Source: a virus (Duplodnaviria; Heunggongvirae; Uroviricota; Caudoviricetes). From it: DNA of 64,000 nt. Under the pieces are notes generated by a model that saw nothing but the letters and a program-made list of their open reading frames with translations, had not been told where the DNA came from and made no database searches. Positions 1,461 through 12,686 of this stretch are shown piece by piece. The stretch lies in the IMG/VR virus record IMGVR_UViG_3300035208_002606; one strand, written 5' to 3'. The position numbers were made by a program, and so were the translations under genes. The stretch's first letter is position 1. Each line of letters opens with the position of its first letter.

Positions 1461-2171
1461 ATGAGAAATAATCAAAAGGTTGTTTGGGGGTTTATTTATC
1501 TTTTTATTGTTTGTAATAAAGGGTATGTGGGACAAACCCCTTATTTAAAAAATAGATTTAAATGTCATTTTAAAATTAAAAAATCAAATTCTTACTTCCA
1601 CAATTCTTTACGCAAATACTTTAAAGAAAATAGTTCTTTCGAAATTTTAGAATGTTGGAAAAGAAATGAAAGAAGTTTAGAAGAATTTAAAAAATTACTT
1701 AATAATAGAGAAATATTTTGGATTGATAAATTAGGCACTTTTGACCCTGAACAAAAAAAGGGTTGGAATTTAACCCGTGGTGGTGGGGGAATTCTTGGAT
1801 TAAAAGGAAAATTTAGTCCAAATTGGAATAAAAAATTGTCTATAGAAACTAGAAGAAAAATAAGTGAAAATCACGCAAATATGTCAGGAATGAATAATCC
1901 TTGTTTTGGAAGAACGAAAGAGAAACATCCCTTTTTTGGAAAAAGGGGGAGTTCAACTTACTATTTTGGAAAGCACCATACAAAAGAAACAAAAAATAAT
2001 ATTTCTAAAAAAACAAGAGGGGAAAATAATGGTTCGGTAAAATTAACAGAAAAAGAAGTAATTGAAATAAAAAATAGTAGTTTATCTCAAATAGAGTTAG
2101 GAAAAATTTATAAAATACATCAATCTCATGTTTCTAGAATAAAAAGAAATGTAAATTGGAAATATTTATAA
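1461..2171 (+). CDS. GIY-YIG homing endonuclease (Seg-like) with NUMOD3-type repeats and C-terminal HTH
   Basis: GFIY...YVGQT, GWNLTRGG, NPCFG/HPFFGK repeats; AT-rich. Confidence 0.85.
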   Translation: MRNNQKVVWGFIYLFIVCNKGYVGQTPYLKNRFKCHFKIKKSNSYFHNSLRKYFKENSSFEILECWKRNERSLEEFKKLLNNREIFWIDKLGTFDPEQKKGWNLTRGGGGILGLKGKFSPNWNKKLSIETRRKISENHANMSGMNNPCFGRTKEKHPFFGKRGSSTYYFGKHHTKETKNNISKKTRGENNGSVKLTEKEVIEIKNSSLSQIELGKIYKIHQSHVSRIKRNVNWKYL

Positions 2172-2966: not shown

Positions 2967-3185
2967 ATGACCAAACAAGAATTCCTTGATAAGATTGATG
3001 ATGTTCGTGTAATGACAAACCATCTTTTTGTAACCGAAGATGATGGAGAGGAGTGGCAGGATGAAGCGGCCCAAGTAATCAAAACGCTAGGGGAACTTAG
3101 GAGTGATGCAGAACTCCTGCTTGAAGAAGAATACGATGCGGGTTATGAATTGGGGCTGAACAGAAGCGAAAATCTAAAGGAGTAA
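2967..3185 (+). CDS. hypothetical protein
   Basis: packed ORF, acidic. Confidence 0.5.
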   Translation: MTKQEFLDKIDDVRVMTNHLFVTEDDGEEWQDEAAQVIKTLGELRSDAELLLEEEYDAGYELGLNRSENLKE

Positions 3186-4095: not shown

Positions 4096-4100
4096 CACTT

Positions 4101-4111
4101 TGTGGTATAAT
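4101..4111 (+). promoter_or_regulatory. extended -10 promoter (TGTGGTATAAT) likely driving the Y-RNA array and Ro60 gene
   Basis: TGTG(G/A)TATAAT recurs at 16094, 24218, 27170, 43069, 46755 and 49105, each before a gene start. Confidence 0.7.
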
Positions 4112-4151
4112 ATTCTTGTTGAAAGGATTTGAGAGTTATTTGACATTTTTG

Positions 4152-4255
4152 TTGAACGTGGCGACAGGGAAGAGTTACTTCTATCGAAATGGGAATGCAC
4201 CCAAATATGGGCGCTTGGGCTTCGGCCTTCTCTCTTTCCGCATGTTCCCGTTCAA
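4152..4255 (+). ncRNA. Y RNA-like module 1
   Basis: ttgaacg/cgttcaa closing stem; tggcgaca...tgttcc bulged helix; gagttacttc motif. Confidence 0.7.
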
Positions 4256-4264
4256 AGCAATATT

Positions 4265-4456
4265 AAAGATGTGGCGACAGAATGAGTTACTTCATTACAA
4301 CTATTATTTCTTACCCACGGGTAAGAAGCGGCGGGTAAACCCGCTGAAAGCCGCAAGGCGAAATGCCGTGAAATTCGGTGAGAGTCATAGGAACTACGCT
4401 TATGACTCGCCCACAATAAAGTGGGCGAGAAACTCGTTCGCTCATTCCCATCTTTT
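4265..4456 (+). ncRNA. Y RNA-like module 2 (large multi-hairpin cargo)
   Basis: aaagatg/catcttt stem; tggcgacagaatgagttacttc ... actcgttcgctcattcc; at least five internal hairpins. Confidence 0.7.
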
Positions 4457-4465
4457 AGCATTATT

Positions 4466-4577
4466 CGGATGTGGCGACAGAATGAGTTACTTCGGTTAAT
4501 AACTACACAGTAGTTTAGCGGGTTCAAACCCCGCAAAGGCCTTCGGGCTTTAAGACTTATTCGCTCATTCCCATCCG
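4466..4577 (+). ncRNA. Y RNA-like module 3 (T-arm-like hairpin)
   Basis: cggatg/catccg stem; gcgggttcaaaccccgc T-arm mimic; cttcgg hairpin. Confidence 0.7.
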
Positions 4578-4587
4578 TAGCATTATT

Positions 4588-4648
4588 AAGGCGTGGTGTA
4601 GACAGAGATACTTCATTGGAAAAAGCCTCTGTCGATTGTTCCCGCTTT
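4588..4648 (+). ncRNA. Y RNA-like module 4 (minimal)
   Basis: aaggcg/cgcttt stem, gacagag/ctctgtc stem, atacttc motif, almost no cargo. Confidence 0.65.
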
Positions 4649-4659
4649 TAGCATTATTA

Positions 4660-4744
4660 GAGTGTGGCGATAGATATGGGTTACTTCAAAACTAACCATC
4701 TTGGTTCTGCCGAAAGGCAATAGCCCTGTCGCATGTTCCCACTC
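4660..4744 (+). ncRNA. Y RNA-like module 5
   Basis: gagtg/cactc stem; tggcgata...gcatgttcc; ggttacttc; tgcc-gaaa-ggca hairpin. Confidence 0.65.
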
Positions 4745-4756
4745 GTAGCATTATTA

Positions 4757-4895
4757 GGAAGTGGTGTAGATATGAGATACTTCAATAAGATTAAACTGGC
4801 AGTTATGGGTTCGAATCCCATCCAACCTCACGAGGCCGGTAGTTCAATGGTAGAACGGCTAGTCCCCAAAAAGCCTCTATCGCTTGTTCCCTTCC
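4757..4895 (+). ncRNA. YrlA-type Y RNA module 6 (permuted tRNA-like domain)
   Basis: ggaag/cttcc stem; T arm atgggttcgaatcccat comes before a capped stem and a D arm tagttcaatggtagaac. Confidence 0.8.
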
Positions 4896-4906
4896 GTAGC
4901 AATATT

Positions 4907-5052
4907 TACTTGCGTGGTGAAAGGTGAAAGTTACTTCAATGTAATGAAACGATTTCAGGTTCGAGTCCTGACTTAGCCGCAAGGTTATGTAGCCTAATTG
5001 GTAAGGCGTTAGCCCGTAAGGGCAAGACTTTTGCCGCCTGTTCCCGCGAGTA
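4907..5052 (+). ncRNA. YrlA-type Y RNA module 7 (permuted tRNA-like domain)
   Basis: tacttgcg/cgcgagta stem; T arm tcaggttcgagtcctga, gcaa-capped stem, D arm tagcctaattggtaaggc. Confidence 0.8.
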
Positions 5053-5083
5053 CTGAACAAAAATTAAAAATAGGAGATAAACA

Positions 5084-6400
5084 ATGAAGACCAACAAGAA
5101 GACCGTGGCGCAAACGAAGACGACTCACGAAGGTGGTCGTGCTTCTCGTATTACCGCTCTTCAAGAACTAAAGAGGTCGGTAATGTCGTGTCTGCTTTTC
5201 GAAGACCAATTCTACGAGAACGGCGTGGATAACGCAACTCGTATCAAGAATTTGGTGGCGAAGGTAGACCCGCAGGATGCCGTTGCCGTGGCTATTTCAG
5301 CACGAAACGACATGCACCTTCGACATGCCCCGTTGTGGATTGCACGATGGTTGGCAAAGAATCCCGAAGCAAAGGTAGGAGAACTCTTGCCGCAAATTAT
5401 CCAACGAGCAGACGAACTCGCAGAGTTCGTTGCGATGTATTGGAAGGACAAGAAGCAACCGCTCTCCAAGCAAGTTAAGAAAGGTCTAGCCCAAGCATTT
5501 ACGAAGTTCAACGAGTATGCTTTGGCGAAGCACAACAGGGAAGGCGCAGTCAAACTGCGAGATGTCTTGTTCCTTTCTCACGCCAAGCCGAAGGATAAGG
5601 AGCAGGCAGAACTGTGGAAGAAACTCATTGACGGAACTCTCGCAACTCCCGACACTTGGGAAGTCGCCCTGTCAGCAGGGAAGGACAAGAAGGAAACCTT
5701 TGAGCGCATGTTGAAGGAGAACACTCTTGGGGACATGGCGTTCATGCGTAACCTGAGGAACATGGCCCAAGCCAAGGTGGACGAAAAACTCATCAAGGAG
5801 TCCTTCAAGAAGAGGAATTTCAACAAGGTATTCCCCTACCGTTTCATTGCGGCGGCTGAAAATGCGCCGTCCTTTGCGGCAGAGTTGGAGAAGAAAATGT
5901 TGGAGTCCCTGTCCGAGCATCCGAAGTTGGACGGCAAGACCGTTCTGCTCATCGATGTTTCGGGTTCGATGGACATGGAGATGTCGGGCAAGTCAGAGAT
6001 GACGAGAATCCATGCGGCTTCGGCTATCGCAGTACTCGCAAGGGAAATCTGCGAGAATGTTCAAATCTTCACTTTCTCCGAAAGGGCAAAGGAAGTGCCG
6101 AATGTTCACGGGTTCGGACTCATCGACAAGATTTGGAATTCGCAAATGCGCGGCGGCACGAATCTGTGGGGAAGCATTCGACAGATTGATGCCAAGGTGG
6201 ACTACGACAGGATGATTGTCTTCACGGACGAACAGGCTCACGACAGCATGACGAGTAAGCCGAAAGGTCAACTCTATGTCGTGAATGTCGGAGCCTATCA
6301 GAACGGCGTGGCCTACAAGAACTCCGTGCATATTGACGGATTCTCCGAGAAGGTTATTGACTTCATCATGGAGTACGAAAAACAAAGTGTGGTAGAATAG
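5084..6400 (+). CDS. rsr: Ro60/TROVE-domain RNA-binding protein with C-terminal vWA domain
   Basis: THEGG start, EDQFYE, KLRDVLFLSHAKP, TWEVALS, AFMRNLRN, PYRF, vWA MIDAS DVSGSM, GGT and FTDEQ. Confidence 0.92.
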   Translation: MKTNKKTVAQTKTTHEGGRASRITALQELKRSVMSCLLFEDQFYENGVDNATRIKNLVAKVDPQDAVAVAISARNDMHLRHAPLWIARWLAKNPEAKVGELLPQIIQRADELAEFVAMYWKDKKQPLSKQVKKGLAQAFTKFNEYALAKHNREGAVKLRDVLFLSHAKPKDKEQAELWKKLIDGTLATPDTWEVALSAGKDKKETFERMLKENTLGDMAFMRNLRNMAQAKVDEKLIKESFKKRNFNKVFPYRFIAAAENAPSFAAELEKKMLESLSEHPKLDGKTVLLIDVSGSMDMEMSGKSEMTRIHAASAIAVLAREICENVQIFTFSERAKEVPNVHGFGLIDKIWNSQMRGGTNLWGSIRQIDAKVDYDRMIVFTDEQAHDSMTSKPKGQLYVVNVGAYQNGVAYKNSVHIDGFSEKVIDFIMEYEKQSVVE

Positions 6401-6401
6401 T

Positions 6402-6433
6402 AAAAGGGGTGGTGGAAACACCACCCCTTTTTT
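6402..6433 (+). terminator. rho-independent terminator
   Basis: aaaaggggtggtg-gaaa-caccaccccttttttt. Confidence 0.85.
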
Positions 6434-6444
6434 AAAGGAGTAGA

Positions 6445-6750
6445 ATGAAAAGTGATTTTGTAGAAGGGCGGCAGTATATTGAATGTACTTGTGGAAGCAC
6501 CGACCATTTGTTAGTATTTGAACTCGACCCTCATTTTTGCGAAAAGTGGGGAGAGGTTTCAGTTTCTTTCACAAGCGGATATCACGAAAGATTTTTTGCG
6601 AGGTTAAAGGCCGCTGTCAAATATCTGTTTAAAAAGGAAAAATACTTACACATCAGCGACAGCATCATCATCAACGAGAAAAATTTAAAAGCACTAAAAA
6701 CAGCAATTAAGGAAATAGAAAAATTAGCCAAAACAAAAAAATTAGTTTAA
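6445..6750 (+). CDS. hypothetical protein
   Basis: AAGGAG RBS; CxC...H motif. Confidence 0.55.
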   Translation: MKSDFVEGRQYIECTCGSTDHLLVFELDPHFCEKWGEVSVSFTSGYHERFFARLKAAVKYLFKKEKYLHISDSIIINEKNLKALKTAIKEIEKLAKTKKLV

Positions 6751-11981: not shown

Positions 11982-12686
11982 ATGGAAAAAAATGGATTGA
12001 TTTATGTCGGGATAAATTTAGAAAATGGAAAAAAATATGTAGGGTGTACTCGACATACTTTAGAAACAAGATTAAAATATCATTTTTATGATTTAAAAAG
12101 AGGCAAAAGATATGCGTTTAATCAAGCGCTTGATAAATATGGATTATCTAAATTTATTTTTATAACTATTCCTATTTCTTTTGAAAAAATGCATCATTAT
12201 GAAGCATTGGCAATTAGATTTTTAAAAACCAAATCACATCAAAACGGTTATAATATTTGTGATGGTGGCAGGGGAATAAAGGACTATACGGGAGAGATTA
12301 GAAAAAAAATAAGTAAAAATCATGCCGATGTAAGTGGCGAAAAAAATCCCATGTTTGGTAAAAAACGGACACAAAAAGAAAAAGATAATTTATCAAAAAT
12401 GAGAACAGGAAAAATAGGTTATATTAGAACAGAGGAGACAAATCAAAAACTCTCAATATCAATGAAAAAATATTGGGCAAGTGGTTTACACACCGATAGA
12501 AAAAGAGAGAATCACCCAAGAGCAAGAGCAGTAATATTAAAATCCCCAAATGGAACAGAGTATAATCTCCCTTGTTATCATCCTTTTTGTAAAGAATACA
12601 ATTTAAACCCCACCCGTATTCGCTCTGTTTTACAAGGAAAACAACAAAGTCATCACGGTTGGTCGGGGAGATATATAGAAAAATGA
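11982..12686 (+). CDS. GIY-YIG homing endonuclease
   Basis: GLIYVGINLENGKKYVG, NGYNICDGG, NPMFGK. Confidence 0.85.
   Translation: MEKNGLIYVGINLENGKKYVGCTRHTLETRLKYHFYDLKRGKRYAFNQALDKYGLSKFIFITIPISFEKMHHYEALAIRFLKTKSHQNGYNICDGGRGIKDYTGEIRKKISKNHADVSGEKNPMFGKKRTQKEKDNLSKMRTGKIGYIRTEETNQKLSISMKKYWASGLHTDRKRENHPRARAVILKSPNGTEYNLPCYHPFCKEYNLNPTRIRSVLQGKQQSHHGWSGRYIEK

What the first reader, a model, noticed from the sequence alone, without database searches (positions are those of the whole stretch)
4101..6433. Phage operon of seven tandem Y-RNA-like modules with interchangeable cargo, followed by Ro60
Seen in sequence: between one extended -10 promoter and the Ro60/TROVE gene lie seven units (4152-4255, 4265-4456, 4466-4577, 4588-4648, 4660-4744, 4757-4895, 4907-5052). 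Each has the same frame: a unit-specific closing stem whose arms co-vary (ttgaacg/cgttcaa, aaagatg/catcttt, cggatg/catccg, aaggcg/cgcttt, gagtg/cactc, ggaag/cttcc, tacttgcg/cgcgagta), a conserved G-TGG(C/T)G...TTCC-C bulged helix, a second co-varying stem, an invariant TACTTC, and a cargo ranging from about 12 nt to well over 100 nt. Established: bacterial Ro60 (Rsr) binds a bulged helix formed by the Y RNA ends and is usually encoded next to a small number of Y RNAs; in Deinococcus the RNA tethers Rsr to PNPase. Inference: the phage makes a panel of Ro60 RNPs with a constant handle and a variable effector domain, which could recruit different host factors or act as RNA decoys.
Basis: partly seen in the sequence, partly recalled or inferred. 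Interest (0 to 1): 0.92.

Follow-up and report, generated by a model that had tools for sequence, protein, structure and literature searches.

The report
Phage Ro60 operon, seven Y RNAs
An uncultured T4-like phage carries a gene for the ring-shaped RNA-binding protein Ro60, preceded by seven small partner "Y RNA" genes that share one docking stem but have different bodies; this is a large example of a known protein-RNA system, and similar rows of up to eight sit unannotated beside Ro60 genes in many phages and bacteria.

Summary
Window 4152-5052 (+) holds exactly seven tandem units between a conserved extended -10 promoter (4103-4111) and a Ro60 gene (5084-6400), which ends in a terminator (6406-6433).

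- **Shared frame.** Each unit has a unit-specific closing stem, a bulged U, a GG:CC pair step, GGYG..AG, a second covarying stem and UACUUC. The 3' strand reads YG...RUUCC.
- **Cargo.** It runs from a short loop to about 135 nt.
- **Model specificity.** A covariance model of the frame finds only these seven in the 64 kb window. It finds 68 units in phage loci and 291 in 80 bacterial Ro60 loci, all on the Ro60 strand.
- **Covariation.** Compensatory changes occur at all 15 modelled pairs.
- **Protein.** It is a true Ro60: Pfam TROVE plus vWA, and the fold of the solved phage phiLo Ro60.
- **YrlA relation.** Units 6 and 7 carry the permuted tRNA mimic of YrlA. The frame carries a variant of the published YrlA motif GNCGAAN0-1G, and the published YUAY.

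The interpretation (a constant Ro60 handle with variable effector modules) is the established Y RNA model, so it is supported but not new. No paper I could search describes the scale: 7 units here, 8 in Caulobacter phage CcrColossus, 5 in Xanthomonas phage Tenjo. This scan has reported such arrays before on other DNA. RNA processing, Ro60 binding and function remain untested.

The parts
4103..4111 (+). Extended -10 promoter TGgTATAAT, the presumed start of the operon (transcription start about 4118)
   Evidence: Read. TGnTATAAT is conserved at the same place in L001 and L002. The two-hexamer scan did not list it because there is no -35.
4133..4147 (+). Conserved leader GAGTTATTTGACATT just before the first unit; role unknown
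   Evidence: Identical in the window, L001 and L002.
4152..4255 (+). Y RNA unit 1 (104 nt): 7-bp closing stem, handle, and cargo of three short hairpins, one with a UUCG loop
   Evidence: Fold. R1 hit at 53 bits, E 1.5e-10.
4265..4456 (+). Y RNA unit 2 (about 191 nt): 7-bp closing stem and a cargo of about 131-135 nt with six hairpins; matches no known RNA family
   Evidence: Fold. R1 hit at 38.5 bits, E 6.5e-7. Orthologues in L001 and L002 keep five cargo pairs through changes on both sides.
4466..4577 (+). Y RNA unit 3 (112 nt): cargo of three hairpins including a T-arm look-alike (GCGGG-UUCAAAC-CCCGC) but no D arm
   Evidence: R1 hit at 60.4 bits.
4588..4648 (+). Y RNA unit 4 (61 nt): a minimal unit made of the handle plus a loop of about 11 nt
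   Evidence: R1 hit at 51.7 bits. Units of 62 nt sit at the matching place in L001 and L002.
4660..4744 (+). Y RNA unit 5 (85 nt): cargo of two hairpins, one with a GAAA loop
   Evidence: R1 hit at 54.9 bits. Its cargo is 76-77% identical to L001 unit 4 and L002 unit 0.
4757..4895 (+). Y RNA unit 6 (139 nt): YrlA-type permuted tRNA mimic, in the order T arm, loop-closed acceptor-like stem, D arm
   Evidence: Rfam YrlA core at 4800-4857 scores 30.6 bits (gathering score 69). R1 hit at 73.7 bits. The T and acceptor-like stems covary across 16 phage units.
4907..5052 (+). Y RNA unit 7 (146 nt): 8-bp closing stem, YrlA-type permuted tRNA mimic and one extra GUAA hairpin
   Evidence: Rfam YrlA core at 4948-5010 scores 32.1 bits. 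R1 hit at 70.6 bits. A 151-nt contig in an RNA library covers 4901-5050, which is only a weak hint.
4256..4906 (+). Six A/U-rich spacers of 9-12 nt with the shared core AGCAWUAUU (4256-4264, 4457-4465, 4578-4587, 4649-4659, 4745-4756, 4896-4906); candidate cutting sites
   Evidence: Similar spacers occur in L001 and L002 but not in distant arrays. The processing role is inference.
5072..5077 (+). Shine-Dalgarno AGGAGA of the Ro60 gene
   Evidence: Read.
5084..6400 (+). Ro60 (Rsr-like) gene, 438 aa: TROVE HEAT-repeat ring plus vWA domain with the MIDAS motif DVSGSM
   Evidence: Pfam. PDB sequence match to 9KOP/9L5Y at E 1.6e-30. AlphaFold model at pLDDT 80.9. Foldseek 9KOP TM 0.76, then 2I91, 1YVP and 2NVO. 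D291/S293/S295 are invariant in 14 relatives.
6406..6433 (+). Intrinsic terminator (GGGGTGGTG-GAAA-CACCACCCC followed by six T)

Best explanation
The stretch is a phage operon that makes one Ro60 protein and seven Y RNAs.

Most likely course:
1. An early-type promoter (4103-4111) drives one transcript through the seven units and the Ro60 gene to the terminator at 6433.
2. Host nucleases cut in the A/U-rich spacers and trim back to each closing stem.
3. Each released RNA docks on Ro60 through the constant handle (closing stem, bulged U, GG:CC, GGYG..AG opposite YG..RUUCC, second stem, UACUUC).
4. The variable body decides what the particle meets. Two bodies are full tRNA look-alikes of the YrlA type, one or two carry a T arm only, three are plain hairpin sets, and one is almost nothing.

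By analogy with Deinococcus Yrn1 and phage phiLo Yrl RNAs, at least some bodies would tether Ro60 to host exoribonucleases such as PNPase. The tRNA-like ones would engage enzymes that read the tRNA elbow. The minimal one may only close the ring.

Shown here: the structure, its conservation, its strict linkage to Ro60, and the identity of the protein. Inferred: co-transcription, processing, binding and partners.
For: - Seven units share one frame, and there are no others in 64 kb.
- Both helices covary strongly: all 15 pairs show double changes, and the score is 0.78 against 0.22 shuffled.
- Linkage to Ro60 is strict. The same frame lies beside Ro60 in 17 of the 19 phage loci tested (IMG/VR contigs plus CcrColossus, Tenjo and crAss001) and in three more of six published phages. 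It gives 291 hits in 80 bacterial Ro60 loci, every one on the Ro60 strand and nearly all just upstream.
- The protein is Ro60 by Pfam, by sequence and by fold. Its closest solved relative is phiLo Ro60, which was shown experimentally to bind two upstream Y-like RNAs and, with them, host PNPase.
- The frame has the published YrlA landmarks: a variant of GNCGAAN0-1G, and YUAY.
- The public YrlA model aligns end to end, below its cut-off, with units of Tenjo, CcrColossus, L007 and L008 that my model also finds.
- Cargo hairpins keep their pairing through compensatory changes between related phages.
- The promoter and terminator bracket the whole stretch, and no convincing terminator lies between.
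- There is precedent for two Y RNAs cut from one precursor upstream of rsr in M. smegmatis.
Against: - There is no direct evidence of discrete RNAs. The only RNA-library data are a few short assembled contigs from relatives, which may be DNA carry-over and show no ends.
- Rfam YrlA is not reached at its gathering score (32 and 31 bits against 69), and only the tRNA-like core aligns in the window.
- The handle differs from the published motif: GGYGNNAG rather than GNCGAAN0-1G. The GG:CC step is followed by conserved non-Watson-Crick positions.
- A terminator-like pattern was flagged at 4420-4446 inside unit 2. I read it as the unit's own 3' handle.
- No phage gene for PNPase, RtcB or an RNA ligase was seen next to the operon. 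The whole genome was not available.
Confidence: 0.8

Rival explanations
1. The units are not released. They form a long structured 5' leader with seven Ro60 binding sites, through which Ro60 feeds back on the stability or translation of its own mRNA.
For: All units lie between the promoter and the Ro60 start codon on one transcript, with no internal terminator. Ro60 binding to the handles is expected in either case.
Against: In crAss001 and Microcystis phage Mvi-JY20 the same units lie downstream of Ro60. In Salmonella the Y RNAs are 3' of rsr, and in M. smegmatis the upstream pair is processed. Seven different, conserved and covarying cargos are not needed for simple feedback. Feedback could still exist in addition.
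Confidence: 0.08
2. The RNAs are real and released but act without Ro60. They would be free tRNA-elbow decoys or sponges for host tRNA-binding enzymes or defence nucleases, and the constant stem would only protect their ends.
For: Three units carry a T-arm motif (unit 2 has only a T-arm-like hairpin) and two carry full tRNA-like cores. In some relatives the arrays sit inside phage tRNA gene clusters.
Against: The frame is found essentially only beside Ro60 and on its strand, in more than 100 loci from distant phages and bacteria. The conserved non-helical handle bases (GGYG..AG, RUUCC, UACUUC) go beyond what end protection needs. Units 1, 4 and 5 have no tRNA-like part.
Confidence: 0.07
3. The units are decaying repeats (duplicated tRNA-like pseudogenes) with no function.
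For: They are tandem repeats with shared flanks. ARAGORN and Rfam call nothing at standard thresholds.
Against: Pairing is kept by compensatory changes in every helix tested, including the cargo. The family is spread across phyla and always sits next to Ro60. The units differ from one another far more than recent duplicates would.
Confidence: 0.02

Closest known systems
Bacterial and phage YrlA/YrlB Y RNAs with Rsr (Ro60): Salmonella rsr-yrlBA-rtcBA, M. smegmatis, mycobacteriophages, CcrColossus (Chen et al. 2014, PMC4201824; Rfam RF02553)
   Same: - The RNAs are encoded beside Ro60 on the same strand.
- The terminal stem carries a GNCGAA-like motif, followed by YUAY at the entry to the body.
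- The body is the permuted tRNA mimic (T arm, closed acceptor-like stem, D arm) in units 6 and 7.
- Further Y RNAs have only a T arm or none, as with YrlB.
- Several RNAs come from one precursor.
   Different: - There are seven RNAs in one row, against the one or two per locus that were reported and tested.
- Five bodies were not described before, including a six-hairpin body of about 131 nt and an almost empty one.
- The handle variant is GGYGNNAG with a GG:CC step.
- The Rfam gathering score is not reached.
Thermus phage phiLo Ro60 with Yrl1 and Yrl2 (NAR 2025, PMC12135203; PDB 9KOP, 9L5Y)
   Same: It is the closest solved protein (E 1.6e-30, TM 0.76). The Y-like RNAs lie upstream of a phage Ro60 gene. 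Binding of the RNAs to Ro60 and to host PNPase was shown for phiLo.
   Different: phiLo has two RNAs, found through a CGAA motif, and no tRNA-like module is reported. Protein identity is about 25%. Nothing has been tested for the present phage.
Deinococcus radiodurans Rsr with Yrn1/Yrn2 (RYPER complex with PNPase)
   Same: Several small RNAs lie upstream of rsr on the same strand. The RNAs are modular, with a Ro60-binding stem and an effector-binding body that includes a T-arm-like hairpin. This is the tether model I adopt.
   Different: It is a different RNA lineage, cellular rather than phage, with at most four RNAs and its own handle sequence.
Vertebrate Y RNAs (hY1, hY3, hY4, hY5)
   Same: A small family of RNAs has one conserved Ro60-binding stem with a bulge, and variable loops that bind different proteins.
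   Different: They are separate Pol III genes rather than a polycistronic array. They have no tRNA-like module and carry a La-binding U tail.

Membership tests
Ro60 / Rsr (TROVE + vWA ring protein) | TROVE (HEAT-repeat) domain | tested here: met
   PF05731 at E 1.2e-12, 48.2 bits against a cut-off of 23.
Ro60 / Rsr (TROVE + vWA ring protein) | C-terminal vWA domain with MIDAS motif DxSxS | tested here: met
   PF25045 vWA_Ro60 scores 27.3 bits, just under its 27.7 cut-off. DVSGSM is invariant in 14 relatives. The vWA fold appears in the model.
Ro60 / Rsr (TROVE + vWA ring protein) | Overall fold of solved Ro60 proteins | tested here: met
   The AlphaFold model has pLDDT 80.9. Foldseek gives 9KOP at E 5.9e-21 and TM 0.76, then 2I91, 1YVP and 2NVO at E about 1e-12 and TM 0.66-0.71.
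Y RNA (general) | Long stem formed by the 5' and 3' ends, containing a conserved Ro60-binding region | tested here: met
   The closing stem plus GG:CC is 94-97% paired, with compensatory changes at 7-8 of its 8 pairs. The conserved motifs are GGYG..AG and YG..RUUCC.
Y RNA (general) | Encoded close to Ro60 on the same strand (in bacteria and phages) | tested here: met
   The window array ends 31 nt before the Ro60 start codon. All 291 hits in 80 bacterial loci and all 68 significant phage hits (E up to 0.001) are on the Ro60 strand.
Y RNA (general) | Physically bound and stabilised by Ro60 | not testable with these tools
   This needs co-purification or gel-shift experiments. It has been shown only for relatives (phiLo, Salmonella, M. 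smegmatis, Deinococcus) in the literature.
YrlA (Rfam RF02553) | Score at or above the Rfam gathering cut-off (69 bits) | tested here: not met
   There is no hit at gathering level. Units 7 and 6 score 32.1 and 30.6 bits, over model positions 24-84 only. Bradyrhizobium, Tenjo and CcrColossus units also stay below 69 bits, so the public model is narrow.
YrlA (Rfam RF02553) | Permuted tRNA-like domain: T arm, loop-closed acceptor-like stem, D arm with GG | tested here: met
   Met for units 6 and 7 only, by alignment to the model core. The T and acceptor-like stems covary in 16 phage units. Units 1-5 lack it.
YrlA (Rfam RF02553) | GNCGAAN0-1G near the 5' end and YUAY before the body (Chen 2014) | tested here: inconclusive
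   YUAY is present (UUAC or AUAC). The 5' motif is GGCGACAG, GGUGUAGA or GGUGAAAG: it matches at 6-7 of 8 positions and is not identical.

The most novel reading that the evidence does not exclude
The arrays may be a fast-changing adaptor or decoy library. One Ro60 ring would be loaded with interchangeable RNA bodies, each aiming it at a different host RNA enzyme or soaking up a different tRNA-reading defence factor. Phages would gain, lose and swap whole units as hosts change. In support, unit content differs between phages whose Ro60 proteins are 82-84% identical, and in some relatives the cargo is a nearly complete, non-permuted tRNA. This would make Ro60 with Y RNAs a programmable, multiplexed RNA-guided system and not a single quality-control particle.
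Probability: 0.2. Interest if true: 0.8.

Novelty: new member of a known kind. Interest (0 to 1): 0.5.

Why it matters
What the variable half of bacterial Y RNAs does is still an open question. So far one partner, PNPase, has been shown to bind Y RNAs directly (Deinococcus Yrn1, phiLo Yrl RNAs), and the tRNA-like half of YrlA has no known effector.

A single phage operon that offers seven bodies on one handle is a ready-made comparison set for pull-downs. The covariance model built here shows where else such sets occur:
- in cultivable phage-host pairs (CcrColossus on Caulobacter crescentus with 8 units, Tenjo on Xanthomonas with 5, Marchewka on Brevundimonas with 5);
- in hundreds of soil-bacterial genomes.

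In all of these places the units are unannotated or mis-annotated as tRNA. The finding also shows that the public YrlA model misses most of this family.

Tried and rejected
- Rfam at gathering level gave nothing in the whole window. ARAGORN found no tRNA or tmRNA.
- Units 1-5 match no Rfam family even at E up to 10; only noise appeared (snoRNA, TUG1, freshwater-2).
- The two-hexamer promoter scan did not list the extended -10, and it flagged a terminator-like pattern inside unit 2 that I discount.
- No whole genome is held for the window, so RtcB, RNA ligase, PNPase and tRNA genes elsewhere in the phage could not be sought.
- Pfam on 17 neighbouring ORFs showed gp32, UvsX/RecA, a DnaB-like helicase, two GIY-YIG endonucleases and a sigma-like protein, but no RNA repair gene.
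- The small ORF after Ro60 (6445-6750) is conserved only in the three closest contigs, so it is not a general partner.
- Sequencing runs: only assembled contigs were available. Two sediment RNA libraries hold short pieces of close relatives, covering part of units 3-4, units 6-7 and parts of Ro60. These data show neither ends nor proof of transcription. One contig joins 4649 to 4832, which I could not interpret.
- Model R1 found nothing beside the Ro60 genes of Ralstonia phage RsoM2USA, Halovirus HGTV-1 and Vibrio phage phiKT1024; these may use other handles. IMG/VR contig L006, which is cut inside its Ro60 gene and has no upstream DNA, also gave no hit.
- An alternative pairing of the handle (GCGA with UCGC, as in the Rfam consensus) was considered. 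It was set aside because the G:C pair that opens stem 2 shows compensatory changes.
- The supplementary tables of Chen 2014 and the 2020 Annual Review (PMC10870794) are not held. I therefore could not see how many YrlA copies were already listed per phage.
- Four literature searches found no description of arrays of more than two to four Y RNAs. The library lacks most subscription journals.
Full report
**What is in the sequence**

Window 4100-6433 reads, in order, on the + strand:
- an extended -10 element, TGgTATAAT (4103-4111);
- a 15-nt leader;
- seven structured units (4152-5052) separated by A/U-rich spacers of 9-12 nt with the core AGCAWUAUU;
- a Shine-Dalgarno sequence;
- a 438-codon ORF (5084-6400);
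- a strong intrinsic terminator (6406-6433).

Every unit has the same frame:
- a unit-specific closing stem of 5-8 bp;
- an unpaired U;
- GG paired with CC;
- GGYG..AG on the 5' strand opposite YG...RUUCC on the 3' strand;
- a second stem of about 7 bp whose sequence differs from unit to unit;
- then (U/A)UACUUC and the cargo.

The unconstrained minimum-energy fold recovers this frame in six units. In unit 6 the frame costs no energy.

**Is it more than chance?**

The 5' motif occurs five times in the window against 0.02 expected. I aligned 30 units from the window and from related phage contigs (A1) and built a covariance model, R1, of the frame only (15 pairs).

In the 64 kb window R1 finds exactly the seven units, with E-values from 1e-15 to 6e-7. 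It also gives one weak hit that lies antisense inside a long ORF and is noise.

Covariation results:
- On the 30-unit alignment, 91.6% of cells pair against 66% in shuffles.
- On 68 model-aligned phage units, 87.5% pair against 58.7%.
- All 15 pairs show changes on both sides.
- The covariation score is 0.78 against 0.22 shuffled and at most 0.25 when partners are slid.

Two caveats apply. My first list of units required five closing pairs, and the second alignment is fitted to the model. Stem 2 was never a criterion and still covaries. Even the near-invariant GG:CC step shows A:U replacements, for example UAGCG with UUCU in the first units of L001 and L002.

**The protein**

- Pfam finds TROVE (E 1.2e-12) and a Ro60-type vWA domain.
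- The closest solved protein by sequence is the Ro60 of Thermus phage phiLo (9KOP/9L5Y, E 1.6e-30, full length).
- An AlphaFold model (pLDDT 80.9) superposes on 9KOP at TM 0.76. It then superposes on Xenopus Ro60 with RNA, human Ro60 and Deinococcus Rsr.
- The MIDAS motif DVSGSM is invariant among 14 relatives.

**What the units are**

Chen et al. 2014 defined bacterial and phage YrlA RNAs by four features:
- a GNCGAAN0-1G motif near the 5' end;
- a conserved YUAY at the entry to the body;
- a permuted tRNA-like body (T arm, loop-closed acceptor-like stem, D arm);
- a position beside Ro60 on the same strand.

The window units have GGCGACAG, GGUGUAGA or GGUGAAAG, then UUAC or AUAC. Units 6 and 7 align to the tRNA-like core of Rfam YrlA at 30.6 and 32.1 bits, well below the gathering score of 69. 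The same public model aligns end to end, also below its cut-off, with units of Xanthomonas phage Tenjo (55.9 bits), CcrColossus, L007 and L008 that R1 also finds. This ties the two descriptions together.

The other cargos are as follows:
- Unit 3 has a T-arm look-alike without a D arm, as reported for M. smegmatis YrlB.
- Units 1 and 5 are small hairpin sets.
- Unit 2 is a six-hairpin body of about 131 nt with no family match.
- Unit 4 is almost only the handle.

Cargo structure is under selection. Between the window and its relatives, five pairs in unit 2 change on both sides and stay paired. The T and acceptor-like stems covary across 16 YrlA-type phage units.

**How common is it?**

| Source | Units found by R1 |
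|---|---|
| L001 (IMG/VR; Ro60 84% identical) | 8 |
| L002 (IMG/VR; Ro60 82% identical) | 7 |
| Other IMG/VR contigs (Ro60 43-54% identical) | 1-4 (one truncated contig none) |
| Caulobacter phage CcrColossus | 8 |
| Xanthomonas phage Tenjo | 5 (four at E up to 0.001) |
| Brevundimonas phage Marchewka | 5 |
| Rhizobium phage TM39 | 3 |
| Microcystis phage Mvi-JY20 | 2, downstream of Ro60 |
| crAss001 | 1-3, downstream of Ro60 |
| RsoM2USA, HGTV-1, a Vibrio phage | none |

In the published phages the units lie in unannotated gaps next to the TROVE gene.

A scan of one genome per prokaryote species gave more than 500 relatives of this Ro60 at 51-58% identity. Most are in Terriglobia and Alphaproteobacteria, including Bradyrhizobium isolates. 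In the best 80 loci R1 gave 291 hits, every one on the Ro60 strand and nearly all just upstream. The typical number is 4-6 per locus and the maximum is 8.

The window's seven is therefore at the upper end of a common pattern and is not an exception. Unit content turns over between close relatives. Window unit 3 has no counterpart in L002, L001 unit 5 and L002 unit 3 have none in the window, and the first position holds different units.

**Comparison with what is known**

- Y RNAs are already described as modular, with a Ro60-binding stem and an effector-binding body.
- Phage YrlA RNAs were reported in 22 phages.
- Two Y RNAs cut from one precursor upstream of rsr were shown in M. smegmatis.
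- Four small RNAs lie upstream of rsr in Deinococcus.
- phiLo Ro60 binds two upstream Y-like RNAs and host PNPase.

In the papers available to me I did not find any description of rows of five to eight Y RNAs with one handle, nor of the non-tRNA-like bodies. Chen 2014 itself notes that Ro60-bound RNAs 'eluded bioinformatic discovery'.

Earlier agents of this scan have reported similar arrays on other DNA and reached the same judgement. I found the CcrColossus and Tenjo arrays before reading those notes.

**Mechanism and its status**

Shown:
- the structure, its covariation, its strict linkage to Ro60 and the identity of the protein;
- operon boundaries conserved in relatives.

Inferred:
- one transcript;
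- cutting in the spacers, whose core GC-AUU would fit the RN|WUU preference of enterobacterial RNase E (this preference is from my own knowledge, and the host is unknown);
- trimming to the stems;
- binding of every unit to Ro60;
- different partners for different bodies.

The only expression data are short contigs from two sediment RNA libraries that cover parts of units 3-4, 6-7 and Ro60 in close relatives. They prove nothing about ends or transcription.

The rivals are a purely cis-acting leader, Ro60-independent decoys, and dead repeats. They are disfavoured by three observations: arrays lie downstream of Ro60 in some phages, the frame is exclusively linked to Ro60, and the covariation is strong.

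**Verdict**

This is a real, well-supported and large Y RNA array with a genuine phage Ro60. It is a new member of a known kind. Its value is as a natural panel of effector modules and as a pointer to cultivable phages that carry the same arrays.

Noticed in passing
L018 1633-1797 (Caulobacter phage CcrColossus JX100810, about 109124-109288): The GenBank feature 'tRNA-Gln' (L018 1637-1704) lies inside one of the eight Y RNA units. ARAGORN finds no tRNA there. It is probably a Y RNA cargo mis-annotated as a tRNA.
   Followed up: partly
L012 3774-3905 and L014 3775-3905 (IMG/VR contigs): One unit carries, inside the same handle, a non-permuted tRNA-like body with a D arm, an anticodon-like arm and a T arm in normal order. 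This differs from the permuted YrlA layout.
   Followed up: no
L007 196-3552 and L008 1614-2203, 4536-7944: In these phage contigs the Y RNA array and Ro60 gene sit inside large tRNA gene clusters (25 or more tRNAs). In L008 tRNA genes and Y units are interleaved.
   Followed up: no
window 4133-4147; L001 about 532-546; L002 about 3086-3100: A 15-nt leader, GAGTTATTTGACATT, lies between the promoter and the first unit and is identical in three related phages. Its role is unknown; it could be a processing signal or a protein-binding site.
   Followed up: no
window 4568-4649 joined to 4832-4925 (RNA-library contig, run X20): One 193-nt contig joins the end of unit 4 to the middle of unit 6, with two extra letters between. 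It is either a relative with a different unit order or an assembly chimera.
   Followed up: no
window 1461-2171 and 11982-12686: Two GIY-YIG/NUMOD3 homing-endonuclease genes flank the replication and Ro60 region. Other first-reader notes describe a shared leader RNA in front of such genes.
   Followed up: no
window 6445-6750: A 101-aa ORF with a Cys/His cluster lies directly after the Ro60 terminator. It is conserved only in the three closest contigs (40-47% identity) and has no Pfam match.
   Followed up: partly
L026-L105 (bacterial genome contigs): This short (about 420-455 aa) Ro60 type is very common in Terriglobia/Acidobacteriota and Alphaproteobacteria genomes. It is closer to the window protein (51-58% identity) than any published phage Ro60 (48% or less). 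Whether these copies are chromosomal or prophage-borne was not checked.
   Followed up: no
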